Positions 3,101 through 62,609 of a stretch of 64,000 nt of DNA are shown one piece after another. Position 1 is the stretch's first letter; the number at the start of each line of letters is the position of its first letter. Position numbers and translations under genes: made by a program. A model generated the notes under the pieces. The model was not told where the DNA came from. It did not search any database and worked only from the letters and a program-made list of their open reading frames with translations. Where the stretch lies: NCBI RefSeq assembly GCF_003019035.1, contig NZ_CP027447.1; one strand, 5' to 3'. Source of the stretch: Escherichia coli (GTDB taxonomy: Bacteria; Pseudomonadota; Gammaproteobacteria; Enterobacterales; Enterobacteriaceae).

Positions 3101-3642
3101 GGCTGAAAGACATGCACCCGACAGAACGTGGTAAAGTCATCACGGCTGCGGGGCTCGTTGTTGCCGCGCGGGTTATGGTCACCAAGCGCGGCAATCGTAT
3201 CGGTATCTGCACGCTGGATGACCGTTCCGGGCGGCTGGAAGTGATGTTGTTTACTGACGCCCTGGATAAATACCAGCAATTGCTGGAAAAAGACCGCATA
3301 CTTATCGTCAGCGGACAGGTCAGCTTTGATGACTTCAGCGGTGGGCTTAAAATGACCGCTCGCGAAGTGATGGATATTGACGAAGCCCGGGAAAAATATG
3401 CTCGCGGGCTTGCTATCTCGCTGACGGACAGGCAAATTGATGACCAGCTTTTAAACCGACTCCGTCAGTCTCTGGAACCCCACCGCTCTGGGACAATTCC
3501 AGTACATCTCTACTATCAGAGGGCGGATGCACGCGCGCGGTTGCGTTTTGGCGCGACGTGGCGTGTCTCTCCGAGCGATCGTTTATTAAACGATCTCCGT
3601 GGCCTCATTGGTTCGGAGCAGGTGGAACTGGAGTTTGACTAA
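160..3642 (+). CDS. dnaE: DNA polymerase III alpha subunit
   Basis: 1160-aa ORF, N-terminus [24 protein letters not shown] (PHP domain), length and synteny match DnaE. Confidence 0.97.
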
Positions 3643-3654
3643 TACAGGAATACT

Positions 3655-4614
3655 ATGAGTCTGAATTTCCTTGATTTTGAACAGCCGATTGCAGAGCTGG
3701 AAGCGAAAATCGATTCTCTGACTGCGGTTAGCCGTCAGGATGAGAAACTGGATATTAACATCGATGAAGAAGTGCATCGTCTGCGTGAAAAAAGCGTAGA
3801 ACTGACGCGTAAAATCTTCGCCGATCTCGGTGCATGGCAGATTGCGCAACTGGCACGCCATCCACAGCGTCCTTATACCCTGGATTACGTTCGCCTGGCA
3901 TTTGATGAATTTGACGAACTGGCTGGCGACCGCGCGTATGCAGACGATAAAGCTATCGTCGGTGGTATCGCCCGTCTCGATGGTCGTCCGGTGATGATCA
4001 TTGGTCATCAAAAAGGTCGTGAAACCAAAGAAAAAATTCGCCGTAACTTTGGTATGCCAGCGCCAGAAGGTTACCGTAAAGCACTGCGTCTGATGCAAAT
4101 GGCTGAACGCTTTAAGATGCCTATCATCACCTTTATCGACACCCCGGGGGCTTATCCTGGCGTGGGCGCAGAAGAGCGTGGTCAGTCTGAAGCCATTGCA
4201 CGCAACCTGCGTGAAATGTCTCGCCTCGGCGTACCGGTAGTTTGTACGGTTATCGGTGAAGGTGGTTCTGGCGGTGCGCTGGCGATTGGCGTGGGCGATA
4301 AAGTGAATATGCTGCAATACAGCACCTATTCCGTTATCTCGCCGGAAGGTTGTGCGTCCATTCTGTGGAAGAGCGCTGACAAAGCGCCGCTGGCGGCTGA
4401 AGCGATGGGTATCATCGCTCCGCGTCTGAAAGAGCTGAAACTGATCGACTCCATCATCCCGGAACCGCTGGGCGGCGCTCACCGTAACCCGGAAGCGATG
4501 GCGGCATCGTTGAAAGCGCAACTGCTGGCGGATCTGGCCGATCTCGACGTGTTAAGCACTGAAGATTTAAAAAATCGTCGTTATCAGCGCCTGATGAGCT
4601 ACGGTTACGCGTAA
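3655..4614 (+). CDS. accA: Acetyl-CoA carboxylase carboxyltransferase alpha subunit
   Basis: 319-aa [25 protein letters not shown]..., immediately downstream of dnaE. Confidence 0.97.
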
Positions 4615-26984: not shown

Positions 26985-27755
26985 ATGACAACACAATCCC
27001 ACCATGACCACGTAGAAAAGCAGTTTAGCTCGCAGGCCAGTGAGTATTTAACCAGTACCGTACATGCATCCGGGCGAGATTTACAGCGCCTGGCGGTGCG
27101 TCTGGCTGATTATCCTGATGCAAGTGTACTTGATATGGGCAGCGGAGCAGGGCATGCCAGCTTTGTCGCTGCGCAGAACGTGAGCGCGGTGGTGGCGTAT
27201 GACTTATCTGCCCAAATGCTGGATGTCGTGGCACAAGCTGCCGAAGCCCGGCACCTGAAAAATATCGCCACCCGCCAGGGTTATGCCGAAAGTCTGCCAT
27301 TTGCCGATAACGCATTTGATATTGTTATCAGCCGTTATTCTGCCCATCACTGGCATGATGTTGGTGCAGCACTGCGTGAAGTGAATCGGGTATTGAAACC
27401 CGGCGGTAGGCTGATTGTGATGGACGTAATGTCTCCGGGTCACCCAGTGCGCGACGTCTGGTTACAGACGGTAGAAGCATTACGCGATACCTCTCACGTA
27501 CGAAACTACGCCAGCGGTGAGTGGTTGACGTTAATCAATGAAGCCAATCTGATAGTTGATAATTTAATTACAGATAAGTTACCGCTGGAATTTTCTTCAT
27601 GGGTCGCGAGAATGCGTACGCCAGAAGCGTTAGTAGACGCTATTCGCATTTACCAACAGAGCGCATCGACAGAGGTGAGAACGTATTTTGCCTTGCAGAA
27701 TGACGGCTCTTTCACCAGTGATATCATCATGGTAGAAGCACATAAAGCGGCATAA
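26985..27755 (+). CDS. yafE: SAM-dependent methyltransferase
   Basis: 256-aa ORF with methyltransferase motif I (VLDMGSGAGHAS). Confidence 0.88.
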   Translation: MTTQSHHDHVEKQFSSQASEYLTSTVHASGRDLQRLAVRLADYPDASVLDMGSGAGHASFVAAQNVSAVVAYDLSAQMLDVVAQAAEARHLKNIATRQGYAESLPFADNAFDIVISRYSAHHWHDVGAALREVNRVLKPGGRLIVMDVMSPGHPVRDVWLQTVEALRDTSHVRNYASGEWLTLINEANLIVDNLITDKLPLEFSSWVARMRTPEALVDAIRIYQQSASTEVRTYFALQNDGSFTSDIIMVEAHKAA

Positions 27756-52495: not shown

Positions 52496-53971
52496 TTACT
52501 CCCTGTCTAACCGGCCAACCAGGGAAAGCTCAAAGTTTGCCCCCATAAATTTAAAATGGGGCCGCACGCTCAGCGCGACCTGGTACCAGCCGGGTTCGCC
52601 TTCCACATCCATAACCTCAACTTTGGCAGCGCGCAGAGGTTTACGGCTGCGCACGTCCGCAGGCGGGTTTTCCTGGTCGGCAACATACTGACGGATCCAG
52701 GTATTAAGCTCTCTTTCTAAGTCGCTCCTTTCTTTCCATGACCCCAGTTGTTCACGCTGCAACACCTTGATGTAGTGCGCTAACCGGTTGATGATGAAGA
52801 GATAAGGAAGCTGCGTACCCAGCTTATAGTTGGTTTCTGCGTCTTTGCCCGGAAAGTGCTTCGGTTTTTGTACCGAGTTTGCAGAGAAAAAGGCTGCATT
52901 ATCAGAGTCTTTACGCATGGTAAGGGTGATAAAACCCTCTTCAGCCAGTTCAAATTCGCGGCGATCGGTGACCAGCACCTCGGTTGGGATTTTGGCCTGA
53001 ATCTGACCCATCGTTTCGAACAGATGCACCGGCAGATCTTTCACTGCGCCGCCGCTTTGCGGACCGATGATATTTGGACACCAGCGGTATTTGGCAAAAC
53101 TGTCTGCGACATTGCACGCCAGCATCCAGGCCGTATTACCCCACAGATAATCTTCGTGGTTCCGGCTGACATCTTCGTGATAGTTAAAGTTCTTAACAGG
53201 GTTATCTGTTGGTGAATAAGGCTGGCGAAGCAGGAAGCGGGGTGCCGTAAGCCCTAAATAGCGCGAATCTTCCGAGTCACGCAGGGCGCGCCATTTGGTG
53301 TAGGCCGGACCTTCAAAGATGGCATAAAGATCTTTGATATTAGGCAGTTCGGTCCACGAGTTCAGCCCCATAAATTCCGGGGAAACGGAGGACAGGAACG
53401 GTGCGTGCGCCATTGCGCCCACGGCACTGACGTATTGCAGCAGTTTCATGTCAGGCGCGGTATTTTTGAACTCATAAGCGCCCAGCACGGCAGCGATGGG
53501 TTCACCGCCAAACTGTCCGAAACCGGACGAATAAACGTGCTTATAAAATCCGGACTGAATAATTTCTGGCGCAAACTCAAAGTCTTCCAGAAGTTCCTGC
53601 TTGGTGACATGAAGCACGTTGACCTTGATGTTTTCACGGAAATCAACGCGATCCACCATTGTTTTCAGTGAGCGCCAGAACGACTCGACCTGCTGAAAGG
53701 CAGGCGCATGGATGATGACATCCATCTGGCGGCTGATGCGTTCATCAATATCTGCAATCATGCTGTCCACGGCCAGTTTATTGACCGGTTCGGCAGATGC
53801 AGTGGATTGCAGGATGCTGGCAATAAAGGCTGTCACACCCTGGCGGGCAACGTCATAACCTTCCGAACCGGGCTGAATACGGGTCTGTGCCATGATTTGA
53901 TCAAGCAGCGACGATGCCTGCTCAGGCTGCCCGGCATGACTGGAAACGAGTTCCTCTTCCTGTAAAGACAT
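52496..53971 (-). CDS. tssC: T6SS contractile sheath large subunit TssC (VipB)
   Basis: 491-aa ORF with conserved TssC core. Confidence 0.93.
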   Translation of the reverse strand: MSLQEEELVSSHAGQPEQASSLLDQIMAQTRIQPGSEGYDVARQGVTAFIASILQSTASAEPVNKLAVDSMIADIDERISRQMDVIIHAPAFQQVESFWRSLKTMVDRVDFRENIKVNVLHVTKQELLEDFEFAPEIIQSGFYKHVYSSGFGQFGGEPIAAVLGAYEFKNTAPDMKLLQYVSAVGAMAHAPFLSSVSPEFMGLNSWTELPNIKDLYAIFEGPAYTKWRALRDSEDSRYLGLTAPRFLLRQPYSPTDNPVKNFNYHEDVSRNHEDYLWGNTAWMLACNVADSFAKYRWCPNIIGPQSGGAVKDLPVHLFETMGQIQAKIPTEVLVTDRREFELAEEGFITLTMRKDSDNAAFFSANSVQKPKHFPGKDAETNYKLGTQLPYLFIINRLAHYIKVLQREQLGSWKERSDLERELNTWIRQYVADQENPPADVRSRKPLRAAKVEVMDVEGEPGWYQVALSVRPHFKFMGANFELSLVGRLDRE

Positions 53972-54021: not shown

Positions 54022-54246
54022 TCAGTGAAGTACGCGCTGCCAGTGCGACGCGCTCTGCTGAAACTCACAAAAATGGATAATCTCATCCAATAGATCACTG
54101 ATACGGCGATCCAGTGTTGTAATCAGCGCAGCCACACCATCCTGGTTGATTTCAACGGACGGGCTGAAACATACCTGGTAAACCACCTGCAGAATGTCTG
54201 CAACAGAGAGGTGGTATGTCCCGGAGATATTTTTGTGTGCCGTCAT
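54022..54246 (-). other. Short ORF (74 aa) resembling the N-terminal segment of TssC; possible gene fragment
   Basis: ...VAALITTLDRRISDLLDEIIHFCEFQQSASHWQRVL aligns by eye (about 40% identity) with TssC residues ...VDSMIADIDERISRQMDVIIHAPAFQQVESFWRSL. Confidence 0.3.
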
Positions 54247-54280: not shown

Positions 54281-54781
54281 TTATTTATTGCTCACCCGGC
54301 CGATTTCTTTGAGCAACTGCTCGCGGGACTCCTCATTTTCCAACAATGCCTGGAGCTGGGTACGGAATGCCGGAAGGTTACCCATCGGCCCCTTCAGTGC
54401 AGTCAGTGCTTCACGCAGTTCCAGCAATTTATTCACTTCCGGAACCTGCCGGGCCACGCTATCTGGTGAAAAATCATCCAGTGATTTGATATTCAGCGCC
54501 ACATTCAGTTCATCGTCTGTTGTGCTTCCCTTCAGCGTGGCGGGGACAGTAAAATTGAGGCCAATGGCTGCTTCAGCCATCACTGCACCGAAATTGTGCT
54601 TGTTAACGGAAACTGCCTGACGTTCATCCAGTGGGGATGTTTCCTGCGTATTTCCGGTATCGCCGACAACGAGCATGTTAAGCGGAAGTTCCACTTCAGC
54701 CGTCTGGCCATCTGTTTTTGGGACATACGATATATTAATACGCTCGCGAGGCGCGACGCTGCCTTCAAATTTTTTGCTCAT
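54281..54781 (-). CDS. tssB: T6SS contractile sheath small subunit TssB (VipA)
   Basis: 166-aa ORF MSKKFEGSVAPRERINISYVPKTDGQTAEVELPLNMLVVGD... Confidence 0.9.
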   Translation of the reverse strand: MSKKFEGSVAPRERINISYVPKTDGQTAEVELPLNMLVVGDTGNTQETSPLDERQAVSVNKHNFGAVMAEAAIGLNFTVPATLKGSTTDDELNVALNIKSLDDFSPDSVARQVPEVNKLLELREALTALKGPMGNLPAFRTQLQALLENEESREQLLKEIGRVSNK

Positions 54782-55165
54782 AAAAGTGATCCGTCATGTT
54801 ATCTCGTACAGGCCATGAACACGGCATATTTGTACCGAAAAAAAATATCGGCAATGCCGCCCTAATGGCGGTGAAAATAAAATCACCACTCCTTCATCAC
54901 CCCGCATTCTACGCTTCAAAATAAATAAGAAAAGGACTTTTTATCGATCGTAAAGAGGGGTATTCTGCAAGCGTTAAATAGATTGTGTGAACCTGTGCAA
55001 TTCGCGCCAGGTGTATTATGGCAATAATTTAAATATAGAGCTTTTATGTAACTTATTGAATTATATAATAATTTCATTAAACATAAGCTAATCTGATGAT
55101 TGCTTGTTTATATATTTGTTTTGTGATTGATTAAGTGGGTATTTTTAAGGAATATCTCAAAAATT

Positions 55166-55186
55166 ATCAAAATGATAATTCAGAAA
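55166..55186. promoter_or_regulatory. Weak Fur-box-like sequence in the tssB/hcp divergent control region
   Basis: AATGATAAT core matches the central 9 nt of the Fur consensus GATAATGATAATCATTATC; about 11/19 overall. Confidence 0.25.
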
Positions 55187-55477
55187 GGATAAATACAATA
55201 TTTATTCATGATTCAGCTTTGGCCATTTTATGGAGGCAATACGGACTTTGAACAGTTGGGTATGGTTATCCAGATATATATTATTAACTTATTGCTGAAT
55301 AAGAGATTTAATGATTTTAAAAATAGTTTTTACGACAACCGTAAATTCTAGCTCGGTTTGTATGTAAAAAATACTGAAAAATGATGCGGTTCCGTGAAGT
55401 GAGCTGCATCTGCCTGTCTGGGATTAACGGCAGGTCATTGTAAGTAGTAATTAACCACGTTAACAAGGAGTTTACAA

Positions 55478-55996
55478 ATGCCAACACCGTGTTATATCTC
55501 CATCACTGGTCAGACCCAGGGAAATATTACTGCAGGTGCATTTACCGCTGATTCTGTCGGCAACATCTATGTGCAGGGGCACGAAGACGAGATGCTGGTG
55601 CAGGAATTCCTGCATAACGTTACTGTCCCGACCGATCCTCAGTCCGGCCAGCCTGCGGGTCAGCGTGCTCACAAGCCGTTCATTTTTACCGTGGCGCTGA
55701 ACAAAGCTGTTCCGCTGATGTACAACGCACTGGCCTCCGGCGAAATGCTGCCAACCACTGAACTTCACTGGTGGCGTACCTCTGTGGAAGGCAAACAGGA
55801 GCATTATTTCACCACCCGCCTGACCGATTCGACGATTGTCGATATGAAACTGCATATGCCGCATTGCCAGGATCCGGCGAAACGCGAGTTCACCCAGTTG
55901 CTCGAAGTTTCACTGGCCTACCGCAAAATAGAGTGGGAACACGTCAAATCTGGCACCTCCGGTGCCGACGACTGGCGCGCACCGCTGGAAGCATAA
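55478..55996 (+). CDS. hcp: T6SS inner tube protein Hcp (TssD)
   Basis: 172-aa ORF MPTPCYISITGQTQGNITAGAFTADSVGNIYVQGHEDE... Confidence 0.93.
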   Translation: MPTPCYISITGQTQGNITAGAFTADSVGNIYVQGHEDEMLVQEFLHNVTVPTDPQSGQPAGQRAHKPFIFTVALNKAVPLMYNALASGEMLPTTELHWWRTSVEGKQEHYFTTRLTDSTIVDMKLHMPHCQDPAKREFTQLLEVSLAYRKIEWEHVKSGTSGADDWRAPLEA

Positions 55997-56007
55997 GTTA
56001 AGCCAAC

Positions 56008-56040
56008 AGCATCCGGCTATCAGGCCGGATGCTGTTTTTG
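56008..56040 (+). terminator. Candidate intrinsic terminator/attenuator between hcp and vgrG
   Basis: GCATCCGGC-TATCAG-GCCGGATGC hairpin followed by TGTTTTTG. Confidence 0.5.
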
Positions 56041-56205
56041 TATTACGCCGTAAAAAGAAAGGTTGTCAGTAAGGGGTTACGTTCACGGGAGATGGCGGAT
56101 GCCGGAAACTTCGGCGGTAGCGTGCCTGAACGCAAGCGTAACACTGTACTGTTACAGCCGCTTTAACAGCGAACTGTCTGTTTTTCCTTAAACCCGGAGG
56201 TTGCT

Positions 56206-58314
56206 ATGTCAACCGGATTACGTTTCACGCTGGAAGTGGACGGCCTGCCACCGGACGCGTTTGCGGTGGTCTCCTTTCATCTGAACCAGTCACTCTCTTC
56301 GCTCTTTTCCCTCGATCTCTCTCTGGTCAGCCAGCAGTTTCTCTCCCTTGAATTTGCGCAGGTGCTGGACAAAATGGCCTACCTGACGGTATGGCAGGGC
56401 GATGACGTACAGCGCCGGGTGAAAGGTGTGGTGACCTGGTTTGAACTGGGGGAGAACGACAAAAACCAGATGCTGTACAGCATGAAGGTGTGCCCACCGC
56501 TGTGGCGCACAGGGCTGCGCCAGAACTTCCGTATCTTCCAGAATGAGGACATCGAAAGCATACTCGCGACGATCCTGAAAGAAAACGGGGTGACCGAGTG
56601 GAGTCCGCTGTTCAGCGAGCCGCATCCTTCCCGTGAGTTTTGTGTCCAGTACGGCGAAACCGATTACGATTTCCTGTGCCGGATGGCGGCGGAGGAAGGC
56701 ATCTTCTTTTATGAGGAGCACGCGCAAAAAAGTACCGACCAGAGCCTGGTCCTGTGCGACACCGTGCGTTATCTGCCGGAGTCCTTTGAGATCCCCTGGA
56801 ATCCGAACACCCGTACCGAGGTGAGCACCCTATGCATCAGCCAGTTCCTCTACAGCGCACAAATCCGCCCATCTTCCGTGGTGACCAAAGACTACACCTT
56901 TAAACGACCCGGCTGGGCAGGGCGTTTTGATCAGGAAGGCCAGCACCAGGATTACCAGCGCACACAGTATGAAGTGTATGACTACCCCGGACGTTTCAAG
57001 GGTGCCCACGGGCAGAACTTTGCCTGCTGGCAGATGGATGGCTGGCGAAACAACGCAGAAGTGGCGCGCGGAACAAGCCGTTCGCCGGAGATATGGCCGG
57101 GACGGCGAATTGCGCTGACGGGGCATCCGCAGGCGAACCTGAACCGGGAATGGCAGGTGGTGGCAAGTGAACTGCACGGCGAGCAGCCGCAGGCGGTGCC
57201 GGGACGCAGTGGTTCAGGTACCACGCTGAATAACCACTTTGCGGTAATACCGGCAGACAGAACATGGCGGCCACAGCCGTTGCTGAAACCGCTGGTGGAC
57301 GGCCCGCAGAGCGCCGTCGTGACGGGACCGGCAGGAGAAGAAATCTTCTGTGATGAACATGGCCGCGTGCGGGTGAAATTTAACTGGGACCGTTATAACC
57401 CGTCAAACCAGGACAGTTCATGCTGGATCCGTGTGGCACAGGCGTGGGCAGGCACCGGGTTTGGTAACCTGGCGATACCGCGTGTGGGTCAGGAGGTCAT
57501 TGTGGACTTCCTCAACGGCGATCCGGACCAGCCGATTATTATGGGGCGCACCTACCACCAGGAAAACCGCACCCCCGGCAGCCTGCCGGGAACAAAGACG
57601 CAAATGACCATTCGTTCAAAAACCTATAAGGGCAGCGGGTTTAATGAACTGAAGTTTGACGATGCGACAGGGAAAGAACAGGTCTACATCCACGCGCAGA
57701 AGAACATGAACACCGAGGTGCTGAATAACCGCACCACAGATGTGATAAACAACCATGCTGAGACCATCGGCAACAATCAGGTGATTGCGGTTACCAACAA
57801 TCAGATACAGACGGTGGGCGTTAACCAGATAGAGACGGTGGGCAGTAACCAGATCATTAAAGTGGGCTCTGTTCAGGTGGAAACGATTGGACTTGTTCGT
57901 GCGCTGACTGTGGGCGTGGCGTATCAGACGACGGTAGGTGGCATTATGAACACCTCGGTGGCCCTGATGCAGTCCTCGCAGATCGGTTTGCATAAATCGT
58001 TGATGGTCGGGCTGGGTTATGACGTCAAAGTCGGAAATAACGTTACCTTCACCGTTGGTAAAACGAAAAAGGATGATACCGGGCAGACCGCGATTTACTC
58101 CGCCGGTGAGCATCTGGAACTCTGCTGTGGTAAGGCAAGGCTGGTGCTGACTAAGGACGGACAAATTTTTCTCAACGGCACAAAAATTCATTTGCAGGGT
58201 AAGGAGCAGGTTAATGGTGACTCACTGTTGATTAACTGGAACTGTGCAGCCTCGAAATCCCCACCGAAGACCCCTGATGAAAAGCAGGATACGCCGGATA
58301 TGAGAGAGTACTGA
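56206..58314 (+). CDS. vgrG: T6SS spike protein VgrG (TssI)
   Basis: 702-aa ORF, N-terminus MSTGLRFTLEVDGLPPDAFAVVSFHLNQSLSSLFSLDLSLVSQQ, beta-helix repeat region (TVGVNQIETVGSNQIIKVGSVQVETIG). Confidence 0.93.
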   Translation: MSTGLRFTLEVDGLPPDAFAVVSFHLNQSLSSLFSLDLSLVSQQFLSLEFAQVLDKMAYLTVWQGDDVQRRVKGVVTWFELGENDKNQMLYSMKVCPPLWRTGLRQNFRIFQNEDIESILATILKENGVTEWSPLFSEPHPSREFCVQYGETDYDFLCRMAAEEGIFFYEEHAQKSTDQSLVLCDTVRYLPESFEIPWNPNTRTEVSTLCISQFLYSAQIRPSSVVTKDYTFKRPGWAGRFDQEGQHQDYQRTQYEVYDYPGRFKGAHGQNFACWQMDGWRNNAEVARGTSRSPEIWPGRRIALTGHPQANLNREWQVVASELHGEQPQAVPGRSGSGTTLNNHFAVIPADRTWRPQPLLKPLVDGPQSAVVTGPAGEEIFCDEHGRVRVKFNWDRYNPSNQDSSCWIRVAQAWAGTGFGNLAIPRVGQEVIVDFLNGDPDQPIIMGRTYHQENRTPGSLPGTKTQMTIRSKTYKGSGFNELKFDDATGKEQVYIHAQKNMNTEVLNNRTTDVINNHAETIGNNQVIAVTNNQIQTVGVNQIETVGSNQIIKVGSVQVETIGLVRALTVGVAYQTTVGGIMNTSVALMQSSQIGLHKSLMVGLGYDVKVGNNVTFTVGKTKKDDTGQTAIYSAGEHLELCCGKARLVLTKDGQIFLNGTKIHLQGKEQVNGDSLLINWNCAASKSPPKTPDEKQDTPDMREY

Positions 58315-58380: not shown

Positions 58381-61300
58381 ATGAGCGGAAAACCGGCGGC
58401 GCGTCAGGGAGATATGACCCAGTATGGCGGTCCCATTGTCCAGGGTTCGGCAGGTGTAAGAATTGGCGCGCCCACCGGCGTGGCCTGTTCAGTGTGCCCG
58501 GGCGGAGTCACTTCCGGCAACCCGGTAAACCCGCTGCTGGGAGCGAAGGTGCTGCCCGGTGAGACGGATGTTGCGCTGCCCGGTCCGCTGCCGTTCATTC
58601 TCTCCCGCACCTACAGCAGCTACCGGACCCGGACGCCTGCACCGGTGGGCGTTTTCGGCCCCGGCTGGAAAGCGCCTTCTGATATCCGCTTACAGCTACG
58701 TGATGACGGACTGATACTCAACGACAACGGCGGGCGGAGCATTCACTTTGAGCCGCTGCTGCCGGGGGAGGCGGTGTACAGCCGCAGCGAGTCAATGTGG
58801 CTGGTGCGTGGCGGTAAGGCAACGCAGCCGGACGGCCACACGCTGGCACGGCTGTGGGCGTCGCTGCCGCCGGATATCCGGTTAAGCCCGCATCTTTACC
58901 TGGCGACCAACAGCGCACAGGGGCCGTGGTGGATACTCGGCTGGTCAGAGCGGGTGCCGGGTACTGAGGACGTACTGCCAGCGCCGCTGCCGCCGTACCG
59001 GGTGCTTACCGGGCTGGCGGACCGCTTCGGGCAGACGCTGACGTACCGGCGTGAGGCCGCCGGTGACCTGGCCGGGGAAATCACCGGCGTGACGGACGGT
59101 GCCGGGCGGAAGTTCCGTCTGGTGCTGACCACACAGGCGCAGCGGGCGGAAGAGGCCCGTAAACAGCACACCGCTTCCTTATCTTCCCCTGACACCCCCC
59201 GCCCTCTTTCAGACTCAGCTTTCCCCGACACACTGCCCGGTACGGAATACGGCCCCGACAGGGGTATCCGCCTTTCGGCGGTGTGGCTGATGCACGACCC
59301 GGCATACCCGGAAAGCCTGCCCGGTGCGCCACTGGCGCGGTACACGTATACGGAAGCCGGTGAACTGCTGGCGGTATATGACCGCAGCAATACGCAGGTG
59401 CGCGCTTTCACGTATGACGTGCAGCACCCGGGCCGGATGGTGGGGCACCGTTATGCGGGAAGGCCGGAGATGCGCTACCGCTACGACAATACCGGGCGGG
59501 TGGTGGAGCAGCTGAACCCGGCAGGGTTAAGCTATCGCTATCTTTATGAGCAGGACCGCATCACCATCACGGACAGCCTGAACCGGCGAGAGGTGCTGCA
59601 TACAGAAGGCGGGGCCGGGCTGAAGCGGGTGGTGAAAAAAGAACTGGCGGACGGCAGCGTCACGCACAGCGGGTATGACGCGGCAGGAAGGCTCACGGCA
59701 CAGACGGACGCGGCGGGACGGCAGACAGAGTACGGTCTGAATGTGGTGTCAGGCGATATCACGGACATCACCACGCCGGACGGGCGGGAGACGAAATTTT
59801 ACTATAACGACGGGAACCAGGTGACGGCAGTGGTGTCCCCGGACGGGCTGGAGAGCCGCCGGGCGTATGATGAGCGGGACAGGCTGGTAACGGAGACATC
59901 GCGCAGTGGGGACGTCATCCGGTATGCTTATGATAATCCGCACAGTGAATTACCGGCCACGACAACAGATGCGACGGGCAGCACCCGGCAGATGACCTGG
60001 AGCCGCTACGGGCAGTTGCTGGCGTTCACCGACTGCTCGGGCTACCAGACCCGCTATGAGTACGACCGCTTCGGCCAGATGACGGCGGTCCACCGCGAGG
60101 AAGGCATCAGCCTTTACCGCCGCTATGACAACCGTGGCCGGTTAACCTCGGTGAAAGACGCACAGGCCCGTGAAACGCAGTATGAGTACAACGCCGCAGG
60201 CGACCTGACTGCCGTTATCACCCCGGATGGCAACCGGAGTGAGACACAGTACGATGGGTGGGGAAAGGCCATCAGCACCACGCAGGGCGGGCTGACGCGC
60301 AGTATGGAGTACGATGCTGCCGGACGTATCACCACGCTGACTAACGAGAACGGCAGCCACAGCGACTTTAGTTACGATGCGCTGGACCGCCTGATACAGC
60401 AGGGCGGCTTTGACGGGCGGACGCAACGTTATCATTATGACCTGACCGGAAAACTCACGCAGAGTGAAGATGAGGGGCTTGTCATCCTCTGGTACTACGA
60501 TGAATCGGACCGTATTACTCACCGCACGGTAAACGGTGAACCGGCAGAACAGTGGCGGTATGACGGCCACGGCTGGCTGAGAGAAATCAGCCACCTGAGC
60601 GAAGGCCACCGTGTTGCCGTCCACTATGGCTATGATAATAAAGGCCGCCTGACCAGTGAGCGCCAGACGGTGCATCACCCGGAGACGGGAGAGCTGCTCT
60701 GGCAGCATGAGACCGGACATGCGTACAACGAACAGGGGCTGGCAAACCGCGTCACGCCGGACAGTCTGCCGCCGGTGGAGTGGCTGACCTATGGTAGCGG
60801 TTATCTGGCAGGCATGAAGCTGGGCGGGACGCCGCTGCTGGAGTTCACGCGCGACCGCCTGCACCGTGAGACGGTGCGCAGCTTCGGCAGCATGGCAGGC
60901 AGTAATGCCGCATACGAACTGACCAGCACATACACCCCTGCAGGCCAGTTACAGAGTCAGCACCTGAACAGCCTGGTGTATGACCGTGACTACGGGTGGA
61001 ATGACAACGGAGACCTGGTGCGCATCAGCGGCCCGCGACAGACGCGGGAATACGGCTACAGCGCCACGGGCAGGCTGGAGAGTGTGCGCACCCTCGCACC
61101 GGACCTGGACATCCGCATCCCGTATGCCACGGACCCGGCGGGCAACCGGCTGCCGGACCCGGAGCTGCACCCGGACAGTACACTCACAGTGTGGCCGGAT
61201 AACCGCATCGCGGAGGATGCGCACTATGTCTACCGCCACGATGAATACGGCAGGCTGACGGAGAAGACGGACCGCATCCCGGCGGGTGTGATACGGACGG

Positions 61301-61989
61301 ACGACGAGCGGACCCACCACTACCACTACGACAGCCAGCACCGCCTGGTGTTCTACACGCGGATACAGCATGGCGAGCCACTGGTCGAGAGCCGCTACGT
61401 CTACGACCCGCAGGGACGGCGAATGGCGAAACGGGTATGGCGGCGGGAGCGTGACCTGACGGGGTGGATGTCGCTGTCGCGTAAACCGGAGGTGACGTGG
61501 TACGGCTGGGACGGCGACCACCTGACGACGGTGCAGACCGACAGCACACGTATCCAGACGGTATACGAGCCGGGAAGCTTCACACCGCTCATCCGCATCG
61601 AAACAGACAACGGCGAGCGGGAGAAAACGCAGCGGCGGAGCCTGGCGGAGAAGCTCCAGCAGGAAGGGAGCGAGGACGGACACGGTGTGGTGTTCCCGGC
61701 TGAACTGGTGAGGATGCTGGACAGGCTGGAGGAAGAAATCCGGGCAGACCGCGTGAGCGGTGAAAGCCGGACGTGGCTTGCACAGTGCGGGCTGGCGGTG
61801 GAGCAACTGGAAAAACAGGTGGAGCCGGAATACACGCCGGAACGCACACTGCATCTTTACCACTGCGACCATCGGGGACTGCCGCTGGCGCTTATCAGCG
61901 AAGACGGCAATACGGTGTGGAGCGCGGAGTATGATGAATGGGGAAACCTGCTTAATGAGGAGAACCCGCATCATGTGTATCAGTCATAG
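58381..61989 (+). CDS. rhs: PAAR-domain Rhs protein, core region, terminated by in-frame TAG
   Basis: 1202-aa ORF; N-terminal PAAR-like region ([42 protein letters not shown]) then YD/RHS repeats; ends ...[11 protein letters not shown] at TAG 61987-61989. Confidence 0.9.
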
Positions 61990-62598
61990 CGTCTGCCGGG
62001 GCAGCAGCATGATGAGGAGTCGGGGCTGTATTATAACCGGAACCGGTACTACAATCCGTTGCTGGGGAGGTATATTACCCAGGATCCAATTGGGCTGGAG
62101 GGGGGATGGAACCTGTATAATTACCCACTGAATCCGATAATAAGGATGGATCCTTTGGGTTTGTATAATTTATATCAATTATTATATGATGTTTGGCATG
62201 ATGATTCATATGGAACATCATCAATTGATATTACTGGCAGTGGAGATCTAATATCATTAGGTGGTCATGCAGGACTTGGCGTTGCGTTTGCTAAAAAGAA
62301 AGGTGAAATGTTATCTGATATTTGTATTTATGCTACAGCATGCGGACATGCAGGAATTGGTGGTGGGATAAATGCGGCTATCACATATTCTGAGACCAAG
62401 TCTTTACCTACATCGGGAGTCAGCAATTCAGTAGGTGTAACGGTTGGCGGCGGAGTTGGGGGGCATTTTGCGTATACTTATGTAGTGGATGTTGATAATC
62501 CAGAATCATCGACAGAATCTGTTGGTATCGGTGCAGGTGTTGACGCTTCAGTTATGACTCTGGCTTGTAGAACGTGGCAAGAATGCTGGGTCAATTAA
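61990..62598 (+). other. Rhs C-terminal region in frame with the core: conserved junction (DPxGL motif) plus glycine-rich candidate toxin domain
   Basis: Same frame as 58381 ORF; [58 protein letters not shown] then an AT-rich, Gly-rich tail; track ORF 62059 begins at TTG, no ATG. Confidence 0.6.
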
Positions 62599-62609
62599 CA
62601 GGAGGAAAT

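What the first reader, a model, noticed from the sequence alone, without database searches (positions are those of the whole stretch)
56008..56040. Hairpin plus T-tract between hcp and vgrG
A perfect 9-bp stem (GCATCCGGC/GCCGGATGC) followed by a T-run lies in the 209-bp hcp-vgrG spacer. This may act as a partial terminator so that Hcp, needed in large amounts, is made in excess over VgrG and Rhs.
Basis: seen in the sequence. Interest (0 to 1): 0.3.

Follow-up and report, generated by a model that had tools for sequence, protein, structure and literature searches.

The report
Terminator hairpin after T6SS hcp gene
The hairpin is a real, evolutionarily conserved transcription terminator at the end of the E. 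coli type VI secretion tube gene hcp; its EHEC counterpart was characterised experimentally in 2026, so it is ordinary, apart from an RfaH anti-terminator loading site that sits about 75 bases downstream of it.

Summary
The stem is 14 bp (56005-56018 / 56023-56036), the loop is ATCA, and a T-run follows at 56035-56039. It starts 8 nt after the hcp stop codon and folds at -25.8 kcal/mol (z = -6.4).

It occurs once per E. coli genome, so it is not a REP element. Across 22 orthologous spacers from more than 10 genera, 8 of 12 stem pairs show compensatory changes and the T-run is kept. Among hcp homologues in general, 51 of 82 carry such a terminator, against about 6 in shuffled controls.

The identical hairpin is "region I" of the EHEC hcp3-vgrG3 spacer "h3R" (Vazquez-Lopez et al. 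2026). There it limits read-through and stabilises hcp3 mRNA. The finding is therefore already known.

The "partial terminator" reading is partly supported. vgrG3 mRNA rises when a swapped hcp3 promoter is induced, but junction RT-PCR is negative in wild type.

About 75 nt downstream lies an exact RfaH ops site, GGCGGTAGCGTG (56113-56124), inside a strongly conserved core. The same terminator-then-ops tandem follows hcp in the unrelated CFT073 T6SS-1 cluster, where RfaH binding at the tssH ops site has been shown by others.

Best model: most transcripts stop after hcp, and the polymerases that read through acquire RfaH for vgrG-rhs.

The parts
55478..55996 (+). hcp (TssD tube protein, 172 aa); stop codon TAA at 55994-55996
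   Evidence: PF05638 E=5e-31; annotated as an Hcp family effector in identical E. coli records
56005..56036 (+). Terminator hairpin: 5' arm 56005-56018, loop ATCA 56019-56022, 3' arm 56023-56036 (14 pairs)
   Evidence: -25.8 kcal/mol, z -6.4. Covariation in 8 of 12 pairs and 97% of cells paired across 22 orthologues. Identical to the +8, 32-nt, 14-pair hairpin of EHEC h3R region I (PMC13141884)
56035..56044 (+). U-tract TTTTTGTATT (the first two T also pair with AA at the stem base)
   Evidence: T-run columns are nearly invariant in alignment A2
56045..56063 (+). Non-conserved A-rich linker
   Evidence: The wider alignment block that contains it (A2 columns 61-87, roughly window 56040-56063) is 0.29-0.62 identical to the window in the cross-genus comparisons, about the same as hcp four-fold sites at 0.39-0.60
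56064..56151 (+). Conserved element that travels with hcp: 5' arm TGTCAGTAAGGGGTTACG (56064-56081), near-invariant core (about 56085-56129), 3' arm CGTAACACTGTACTG (56137-56151)
   Evidence: Element 0.68-0.92 and core 0.72-0.98 identical to the window in all but the most divergent cross-genus comparison, against 0.39-0.60 at hcp four-fold sites. Single copy per genome. Predicted long hairpin, but little true covariation
56113..56124 (+). RfaH-recruiting ops element GGCGGTAGCGTG on the non-template strand for rightward transcription
   Evidence: Exact 12/12 match to the consensus quoted in bioRxiv 10.1101/2025.02.08.637259. Found at +115 to +133 after the hcp stop in 21 of the 84 sequences scanned (the window plus 20 loci), with only three other strict-pattern matches on either strand of those sequences; variation falls at the degenerate position 10. 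ops plus CCTGAA is shared with the CFT073 hcp-tssH spacer
56196..56200 (+). vgrG Shine-Dalgarno GGAGG, 5 nt before the ATG
   Evidence: Read from the sequence
56206..58314 (+). vgrG (TssI), 702 aa
   Evidence: Pfam Phage_GPD, Phage_base_V, Gp5_trimer_C
58381..61989 (+). Rhs core protein ORF (1202 aa)
   Evidence: Pfam RHS_repeat x7, DUF6531, RHS

Best explanation
The hairpin plus U-tract is the intrinsic (Rho-independent) terminator of the hcp transcript. Transcription starts in the AT-rich tssB-hcp divergent promoter region. Most polymerases release about 40 nt after the hcp stop codon, producing an abundant monocistronic hcp mRNA whose 3' hairpin also protects it from decay.

A minority of polymerases read through. 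About 75 nt later they transcribe a consensus ops site (56113-56124), where RfaH loads in place of NusG. RfaH makes them resistant to pausing, Rho and H-NS and helps ribosome recruitment, so the vgrG-rhs genes are expressed at a low, RfaH-dependent level.

Shown here: the structure, its covariation, its enrichment after hcp, and the presence and conservation of ops. Shown by others in EHEC, EAEC or CFT073: hairpin-region effects on hcp3 mRNA and on read-through, ops1/RfaH dependence of genes downstream of hcp in T6SS-1, and RfaH binding at the CFT073 tssH ops site. Inferred: that read-through rather than a spacer promoter feeds ops at this locus, and that RfaH acts here.
For: 1. Canonical anatomy: 14-bp stem, 4-nt loop, five U, starting 8 nt after the stop codon, z = -6.4.
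2. Selection on RNA structure: 8 of 12 pairs have double changes, 97% of cells are paired, and G-U cells (24) far outnumber A-C cells (4), which points to plus-strand RNA. No shuffle reached the observed covariation score.
3. Generality: 51 of 82 distinct hcp-downstream sequences have a hairpin (dG <= -10) plus T-tract, against 6.35 +/- 2.2 in shuffles.
4. Experiments on the identical EHEC hairpin (PMC13141884): hcp3 mRNA fell to 6% and Hcp3 to 50% when region I was deleted; junction RNA and the downstream reporter rose; vgrG3 mRNA was induced from the swapped hcp3 promoter, but less than hcp3.
5. An exact ops site is conserved in 21 of the 84 sequences scanned, and the core around it is far more conserved than hcp synonymous sites.
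6. The same tandem occurs in CFT073 T6SS-1: hairpin GGCAGACAG-GAAA-CTGTCTGCC plus TTTTTG at +8, and ops about 100 nt later, before tssH. RfaH ChIP signal at the tssH ops site is reported there (PMC9765446). In EAEC, ops1 and rfaH mutations abolish expression downstream of hcp but not upstream.
7. No convincing promoter lies between the T-tract and ops.
8. In loci with 76-93-nt hcp-vgrG spacers, some carry a hairpin that leaves no room for a promoter.
Against: Junction RT-PCR was negative in wild-type EHEC, and its authors infer a separate vgrG3 promoter. However, the locus is H-NS-silenced in that strain, and a very stable hairpin can block reverse transcriptase.

Deleting the hairpin region only doubled a downstream reporter, so other blocks exist in the spacer.

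Termination efficiency cannot be computed from sequence. RfaH binding at this T6SS-2-type hcp-vgrG ops has not been tested by anyone I could find. A weak, positionally conserved promoter-like match (TTTACG-17-GAAACT, 7 of 12) exists just upstream of ops.
Confidence: 0.72

Rival explanations
1. The terminator is complete and vgrG has its own promoter. The hairpin ends the hcp operon entirely, and vgrG-rhs is transcribed from an independent, regulated promoter inside the spacer (the 'region II' model of Vazquez-Lopez et al.).
For: Junction RT-PCR was negative in wild-type EHEC while a vgrG3 amplicon was detected. Software predicted a promoter and Fis/NarP/MalT/MelR sites. A weak match, TTTACG-17-GAAACT, recurs at the same aligned position in 12 of 19 orthologues. 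In CFT073, 'potential promoter regions of tssH' are discussed.
Against: The promoter is a prediction only. None of the sugars or amino acids tested activated an h3R reporter by more than two-fold. The tool scan finds no plus-strand sigma-70-like site in 55997-56205. The -35 of the weak match is not conserved, and its start site would fall inside ops, which would make the exactly conserved ops useless. A promoter placed near the end of the spacer ORF would lie downstream of ops, with the same consequence. vgrG3 mRNA rose on induction of the swapped upstream promoter. Replacing h3R with Lac or Ara promoters still gave no VgrG3, which fits loss of ops better than loss of a promoter.
Confidence: 0.2
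2. The hairpin is mainly an mRNA-stabilising 3' structure or processing barrier, not a site of RNA polymerase release.
For: Deleting region I cut hcp3 mRNA to 6% and halved an upstream GFP reporter, regardless of the flanking genes.
Against: A stabiliser does not need a U-tract, yet the five-T run directly after the stem is nearly invariant across genera. Hairpin-plus-T-tract is enriched eight-fold after hcp homologues. Junction RNA increased when the region was deleted. The two roles are not exclusive, and the best explanation includes both.
Confidence: 0.06
3. The palindrome is a chance or repetitive element (REP/BIME-like, because of its GCCGGATGC motif) or a DNA operator, with no transcript-level role.
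For: GCCGGATGC resembles the E. coli REP core (from memory). The opposite strand folds equally well as RNA (-23.8 kcal/mol).
Against: It occurs once per genome in 2193 genomes and only once in the window. Orthologues keep the pairing while the sequence changes, with G-U far more common than A-C. That asymmetry is not expected for a DNA palindrome or for minus-strand RNA. The minus strand has no T-tract after the stem and no convergent gene.
Confidence: 0.02

Closest known systems
h3R region I, the hcp3 3'-UTR terminator hairpin of EHEC EDL933 (Vazquez-Lopez et al., Microbiol Spectr 2026, PMC13141884)
   Same: This is the orthologous sequence. The O157 spacer is about 97-98% identical and the hairpin is identical. 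It has the same +8 position, 32-nt length and 14 pairs. It sits in the same T6SS-2-type cluster with divergent tssB and hcp-vgrG-rhs.
   Different: The window comes from a non-O157 E. coli (100% match to strain SCU-301 over 1 kb). That paper does not mention RfaH or ops and interprets the downstream conserved region as a promoter with transcription-factor sites. It reports no cross-genus conservation.
Canonical intrinsic (Rho-independent) terminators that set differential expression inside or at the end of operons
   Same: A G+C-rich stem-loop immediately followed by a U-run, a few nucleotides after a stop codon, preceding genes needed in lower amounts.
   Different: The distal U-tract is interrupted (UUUUUGUAUU). 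Efficiency at this locus is unmeasured. It is followed by an anti-terminator loading site rather than by a promoter or the next coding sequence.
RfaH/ops control of T6SS clusters: EAEC Sci-1 ops1 in the hcp-clpV spacer (Taillefer, Desjardins and Cascales, bioRxiv 10.1101/2025.02.08.637259); RfaH ChIP signal at the CFT073 tssH ops site (Hustmyer et al., mBio 2022, PMC9765446)
   Same: A consensus GGCGGTAGCGTG in the untranslated spacer immediately downstream of hcp, on the non-template strand, ahead of a long horizontally acquired gene set. ops plus CCTGAA is shared with CFT073.
   Different: Those data are for T6SS-1, with a different Hcp family and clpV/tssH downstream. Here the cluster is T6SS-2-type and the downstream genes are vgrG-rhs. 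The preprint says the EDL933 cluster carries ops elements, but the text I read gives neither their position nor a test. Neither paper mentions the terminator that precedes ops.
JUMPStart/ops leaders of the rfa, rfb, kps and hly operons
   Same: The ops 12-mer lies in a conserved non-coding leader, at a comparable distance from the start codon (82 nt here; 40-67 nt for wzx, kps and rfa, and about 600 nt for hly, per PMC9765446).
   Different: Here ops is not in a promoter-proximal leader. It lies behind a translated gene and its terminator.

Membership tests
Intrinsic (Rho-independent) terminator | Stable G+C-rich RNA stem-loop on the coding strand | tested here: met
   14 pairs (8 G-C), -25.8 kcal/mol, z -6.4
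Intrinsic (Rho-independent) terminator | U-rich tract immediately 3' of the stem | tested here: met
   TTTTTGTATT from 56035; the T-run is nearly invariant in 22 orthologues
Intrinsic (Rho-independent) terminator | Pairing maintained by compensatory substitutions | tested here: met
   8 of 12 pairs have double changes and 97% of cells are paired; slid controls give 31-48% paired for the whole structure
Intrinsic (Rho-independent) terminator | RNA 3' ends or polymerase release at the U-tract | not testable with these tools
   Only indirect published data exist for the identical EHEC hairpin: junction RT-PCR and reporter assays (PMC13141884). I found no 3'-end mapping.
RfaH ops element | 12-nt consensus GGCGGTAGNNTG | tested here: met
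   GGCGGTAGCGTG at 56113-56124, 12 of 12. In the orthologues, substitutions inside the strict pattern fall at the degenerate position 10.
RfaH ops element | On the non-template strand of a transcribed, untranslated leader or intergenic region | tested here: met
   It is on the plus strand, the same sense as hcp and vgrG. It lies in the 209-nt spacer. The only ORF over it is not conserved: its ATG is lost in Buttiauxella and indels are not multiples of three.
RfaH ops element | RfaH recruitment and RfaH-dependent downstream expression | not testable with these tools
   Shown for the T6SS-1 ops after hcp in EAEC and CFT073, but not for this locus
REP/BIME repetitive extragenic palindrome | Many dispersed copies per genome | tested here: not met
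   One place per genome in 2193 genomes; one copy in the window
Any curated Rfam family | Covariance-model match | tested here: not met
   Only chance-level hits (E about 1 or higher) in 54800-56600
CsrA/RsmA binding hairpin in the conserved core | GGA conserved in a hairpin loop | tested here: not met
   The loop of GGC-GGAU-GCC varies (GGAU, AGAU, AGAC, GAGC, AGAA, GGCU) across orthologues

The most novel reading that the evidence does not exclude
The hcp terminator and the ops site about 75-100 nt behind it form one conserved two-part gate that recurs in at least two unrelated enterobacterial T6SS families. The terminator fixes a high, RfaH-independent output of tube protein and clears the ribosome- and NusG-coupled complex. 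Only the polymerases that leak through are re-licensed by RfaH for the spike, effector or machinery genes.

This would reinterpret 'region II' of EHEC h3R as an ops pause and loading site rather than a promoter. It could also explain why promoter swaps, including one that replaced h3R and therefore removed ops, never yielded VgrG3 in EHEC.
Probability: 0.45. Interest if true: 0.45.

Novelty: already known. Interest (0 to 1): 0.27.

Why it matters
Each T6SS firing uses hundreds of Hcp subunits for every VgrG trimer (established knowledge of T6SS architecture), so cells must express adjacent genes at very different levels. A terminator after hcp is the simple solution, and it has now been documented experimentally in EHEC.

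The practical value of this re-examination is in linking two recent papers that do not cite each other's mechanism. The EHEC h3R study could not obtain VgrG3 by promoter engineering. The EAEC study showed that RfaH/ops is required downstream of hcp.

If read-through plus RfaH feeds vgrG-rhs at this locus, then keeping ops intact and supplying RfaH may be what is needed to switch on the silent EHEC-type T6SS in the laboratory.

Tried and rejected
- **Rfam scan** of 54800-56600 at E <= 10 gave nothing meaningful.
- **REP or MITE idea** rejected: both the hairpin and the downstream element are single copy per genome.
- **Small protein in the spacer** rejected. Candidates were the 45-aa ORF 56029-56166 and an internal ATG at 56092 giving 24 aa. 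The ATG directly abuts GGAG, it is lost in Buttiauxella brennerae, an 8-nt indel occurs in E. whittamii and strain HYM1, and substitutions are not biased to third codon positions.
- **CsrA site in the core** rejected: the loop GGA is not conserved.
- **Sigma-54 promoter** rejected: by eye, the -24/-12 spacing does not fit.
- **Sigma-70 promoter**: no hit from the tool. There is only a 7-of-12 match whose -35 is not conserved and whose start site would fall inside ops.
- **Long RNA hairpin formed by the arms flanking ops**: it is predicted in most orthologues, but the changes are almost all one-sided or absent. I cannot tell whether it is an RNA structure or simply conserved DNA.
- **RfaH evidence at an hcp-less vgrG island in CFT073** (L088): no exact ops there, so it was uninformative. 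L087 was a wrong guess of coordinates.
- **Other RfaH papers**: the Erwinia and Yersinia studies gave no locus-specific support. Gueguen and Cascales 2013 was not available. A Term-seq literature search found no 3'-end data for this locus.

Full report
**Observation**

The window carries an E. coli type VI secretion cluster. The genes tssC (52496-53971) and tssB (54281-54781) are on the minus strand. On the plus strand are hcp (55478-55996), vgrG (56206-58314) and an Rhs core ORF (58381-61989).

A 1-kb stretch around the finding is 100% identical to E. coli SCU-301. At least 80% of it is present in 2095 of 5426 complete E. coli genomes, including O157:H7.

The two 9-mers sit at 56009-56017 and 56024-56032.

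The helix is longer than reported. It has 14 pairs, 56005-56018 with 56023-56036, a 4-nt loop ATCA, and then TTTTTGTATT. The MFE is -25.8 kcal/mol, against -9.7 +/- 2.5 for dinucleotide shuffles (z = -6.4). The hairpin begins 8 nt after the TAA of hcp.

Terminator-like hits as a class are not enriched in this 12-kb region (11 found, 11.7 expected). This one is by far the strongest.

**Is it selected?**

I fetched 80 loci encoding Hcp proteins at least 81% identical to this one.

A hairpin (dG <= -10 kcal/mol) followed by a T-tract, starting within 45 nt of the stop codon, is present in 51 of 82 distinct downstream sequences. Dinucleotide shuffles of the same sequences give 6.35 +/- 2.2.

For 22 spacers that can be aligned, from Escherichia, Citrobacter, Yokenella, Atlantibacter, Pseudocitrobacter, Buttiauxella, Lelliottia, Superficieibacter, Phytobacter and Trabulsiella (alignment A2):
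- RNAalifold recovers the helix.
- 8 of 12 counted pairs show changes on both sides.
- 97% of cells are paired, against 31-48% for the whole counted structure when partners are slid by 1-3 columns.
- G-U cells outnumber A-C cells 24 to 4, which indicates plus-strand RNA rather than a DNA palindrome.
- The T-run is nearly invariant.

The hairpin occurs once per genome, so it is not a REP element despite the GCCGGATGC motif. Rfam has nothing here.

**Already published**

A full-text search found Vazquez-Lopez et al., Microbiol Spectr 2026 (PMC13141884). That paper studies this same spacer in EHEC EDL933 under the name h3R. The O157 spacer is about 97-98% identical to the window, and the hairpin is identical.

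They describe a hairpin at +8 of the hcp3 3' UTR, 32 nt long with 14 pairs, as region I. Their results:
- RT-PCR across hcp3-vgrG3 is negative in wild type and faint from a pTrc plasmid.
- Deleting region I lowers hcp3 mRNA to 6% and Hcp3 to about 50%, and raises junction RNA.
- In a gfp-h3R-mCherry reporter, deleting region I, or regions I and II together, halves GFP and doubles mCherry.
- Regions I and II must both be removed before VgrG3 is clearly detected.
- When the tssB-hcp3 promoter is swapped for inducible promoters, vgrG3 mRNA rises on induction, but less than hcp3 mRNA.

Those authors conclude that the two genes form separate operons and that region II holds a promoter. That promoter rests only on prediction software.

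**What lies behind the terminator**

The spacer is not inert.
- The linker block after the hairpin evolves at about the neutral rate. Against the window it is 0.29-0.62 identical in cross-genus comparisons, while hcp four-fold degenerate sites are 0.39-0.60.
- The stretch 56064-56151 is 0.68-0.92 identical in all but the most divergent comparison (Trabulsiella, 0.45).
- Its core, roughly 56085-56129, is 0.70-0.98 identical.

The core contains GGCGGTAGCGTG at 56113-56124. This is an exact match to the ops element that recruits the anti-terminator RfaH (consensus as quoted in bioRxiv 10.1101/2025.02.08.637259).

The strict ops pattern occurs at +115 to +133 after the hcp stop in 21 of the 84 sequences scanned (the window plus 20 loci), always on the coding-sense strand. 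Only three other matches occur on either strand of all 84 sequences. Within these matches, substitutions fall at the degenerate position 10 of the consensus. A 49-kb control stretch is expected to hold 0.04 exact matches by chance.

The element stays with hcp rather than with vgrG:
- Orphan vgrG loci in E. coli share homology only from about 10 nt before the ATG.
- In two Lelliottia loci and one Citrobacter locus, other genes are inserted between ops and vgrG.

**Published ops/RfaH evidence for T6SS**

Taillefer, Desjardins and Cascales (2025 preprint) found a consensus ops1 in the hcp-clpV spacer of EAEC Sci-1.
- Mutating ops1 or rfaH abolishes expression downstream of hcp, but not upstream.
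- They state that the EDL933 cluster also carries ops elements.

Hustmyer et al. 2022 (PMC9765446) detected RfaH by ChIP at the ops site of the CFT073 T6SS tssH locus in an hns stpA mutant.

The preprint never mentions a terminator. I did not search the Hustmyer paper for that word. The h3R paper never mentions RfaH or ops.

**The same tandem in another T6SS family**

I read the CFT073 hcp-tssH spacer (L086). It shows:
- the hairpin GGCAGACAG-GAAA-CTGTCTGCC plus TTTTTGTTGT, again starting 8 nt after the stop codon (-18 kcal/mol);
- GGCGGTAGCGTG about 100 nt further on, 49 nt before tssH.

Only ops plus CCTGAA aligns with the window; the rest of the spacer is unrelated. This Hcp belongs to a different subfamily and sits in the middle of the cluster, ahead of tssH, vgrG, tssA, tssF, tssG, tssJ and tssE. 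A leaky terminator followed by RfaH loading is the simplest way for those genes to be expressed. I did not exclude an internal promoter there.

**Mechanism favoured**

Most transcripts end at the hairpin, which gives abundant, stabilised hcp mRNA. Polymerases that read through meet ops, load RfaH, and transcribe vgrG-rhs.

Support for read-through at this locus is indirect:
- vgrG3 mRNA responds to the swapped upstream promoter.
- ops is exactly conserved, and ops works only in an elongating complex that started upstream.
- There are only about 75 nt between the T-tract and ops, with no sigma-70-like site by the tool. My looser scan found just a 7-of-12 match (TTTACG-17-GAAACT). Its -35 is not conserved, and its start site would fall inside ops.
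- Replacing h3R with Lac or Ara promoters still gave no VgrG3, as expected if ops was removed.

Against read-through is the negative junction RT-PCR in wild type. However, the locus is H-NS-silenced in that strain, and a -26 kcal/mol hairpin can impede reverse transcriptase.

I give 0.72 to terminator plus stabiliser with leaky read-through feeding ops, and 0.20 to a full stop with an independent promoter.

**Unresolved**

The arms flanking ops (56064-56081 and 56137-56151) are predicted to pair in most orthologues. They show almost no double substitutions, so an RNA structure cannot be distinguished from plain sequence conservation. The function of the conserved core upstream of ops (GGGAGATGGCGGATGCCGGAAAC) is unknown. 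Candidate readings that I tested and rejected are listed under Tried and rejected.

**Verdict**

The hairpin is a real, selected, canonical intrinsic terminator that has already been described experimentally in an orthologous strain. The one addition with some value is the link between this terminator and the RfaH ops site behind it, an arrangement that recurs after hcp in two T6SS families.

Noticed in passing
window 56113-56124 (+): Exact RfaH ops consensus GGCGGTAGCGTG about 75 nt downstream of the terminator. It is conserved at the same place in 21 of the 84 sequences scanned, and it follows hcp in the CFT073 T6SS-1 cluster too.
   Followed up: yes
window 56064-56081 and 56137-56151 (+): Conserved inverted arms (TGTCAGTAAGGGGTTACG / CGTAACACTGTACTG) bracket the ops core. 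They are predicted to form a long hairpin, but there is almost no compensatory variation, so an RNA role is unproven.
   Followed up: partly
window 56184-56200 (+); same position in L002, L009, L010, L012, L015, L006, L007: A short pyrimidine stretch (UUCC / UUUCCUG) can pair with the vgrG Shine-Dalgarno region (GGAGG / CAGGGAGG). This is 3 bp in the window and up to 8 bp in other species. It may be a weak SD-sequestering hairpin, relevant to the reported poor VgrG3 translation.
   Followed up: partly
window 27402-27413 (+): A second exact match to GGCGGTAGNNTG (GGCGGTAGGCTG), lying inside ORF 26985-27755. Published ChIP data say that ops-like sites within coding regions do not bind RfaH, so this is probably chance.
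   Followed up: partly
window 61989-62600: The Rhs ORF stops at 61989, directly after the core RHS motif. G+C drops there from about 0.61 to about 0.40, and short ORFs in other frames follow (61760-62131, 62059-62598). The same gene is annotated as frameshifted in strain SCU-301, so the toxin tip may be disrupted or displaced.
   Followed up: no
window 54782-55477: The roughly 700-bp divergent tssB-hcp intergenic region is very AT-rich (G+C 0.32-0.39). This fits the H-NS-bound bidirectional promoter described for EHEC.
   Followed up: no
window 54022-54246 (-): A 74-aa ORF lies between tssB and tssC. It is annotated as a conserved hypothetical protein (WP_000123970.1) in SCU-301 and O157 records, and it is absent from the HB42 and HYM1 versions of the cluster.
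   Followed up: no
L084 (E. coli HYM1) 3438-3659; 582 E. coli genomes: A second, paralogous tssB / hcp-vgrG-DUF4123 cluster in E. coli carries the same conserved core, 84-86% identical over window 56064-56130. Its ops reads GGCGGTAGCGTA, differing from the consensus only at the last base.
   Followed up: partly
L018 3919-5669 and L021 3833-5121 (Lelliottia): A gene pair that includes a DUF4225 protein is inserted between the hcp terminator-ops module and vgrG. The module therefore stays with hcp while the downstream cargo varies.
   Followed up: partly
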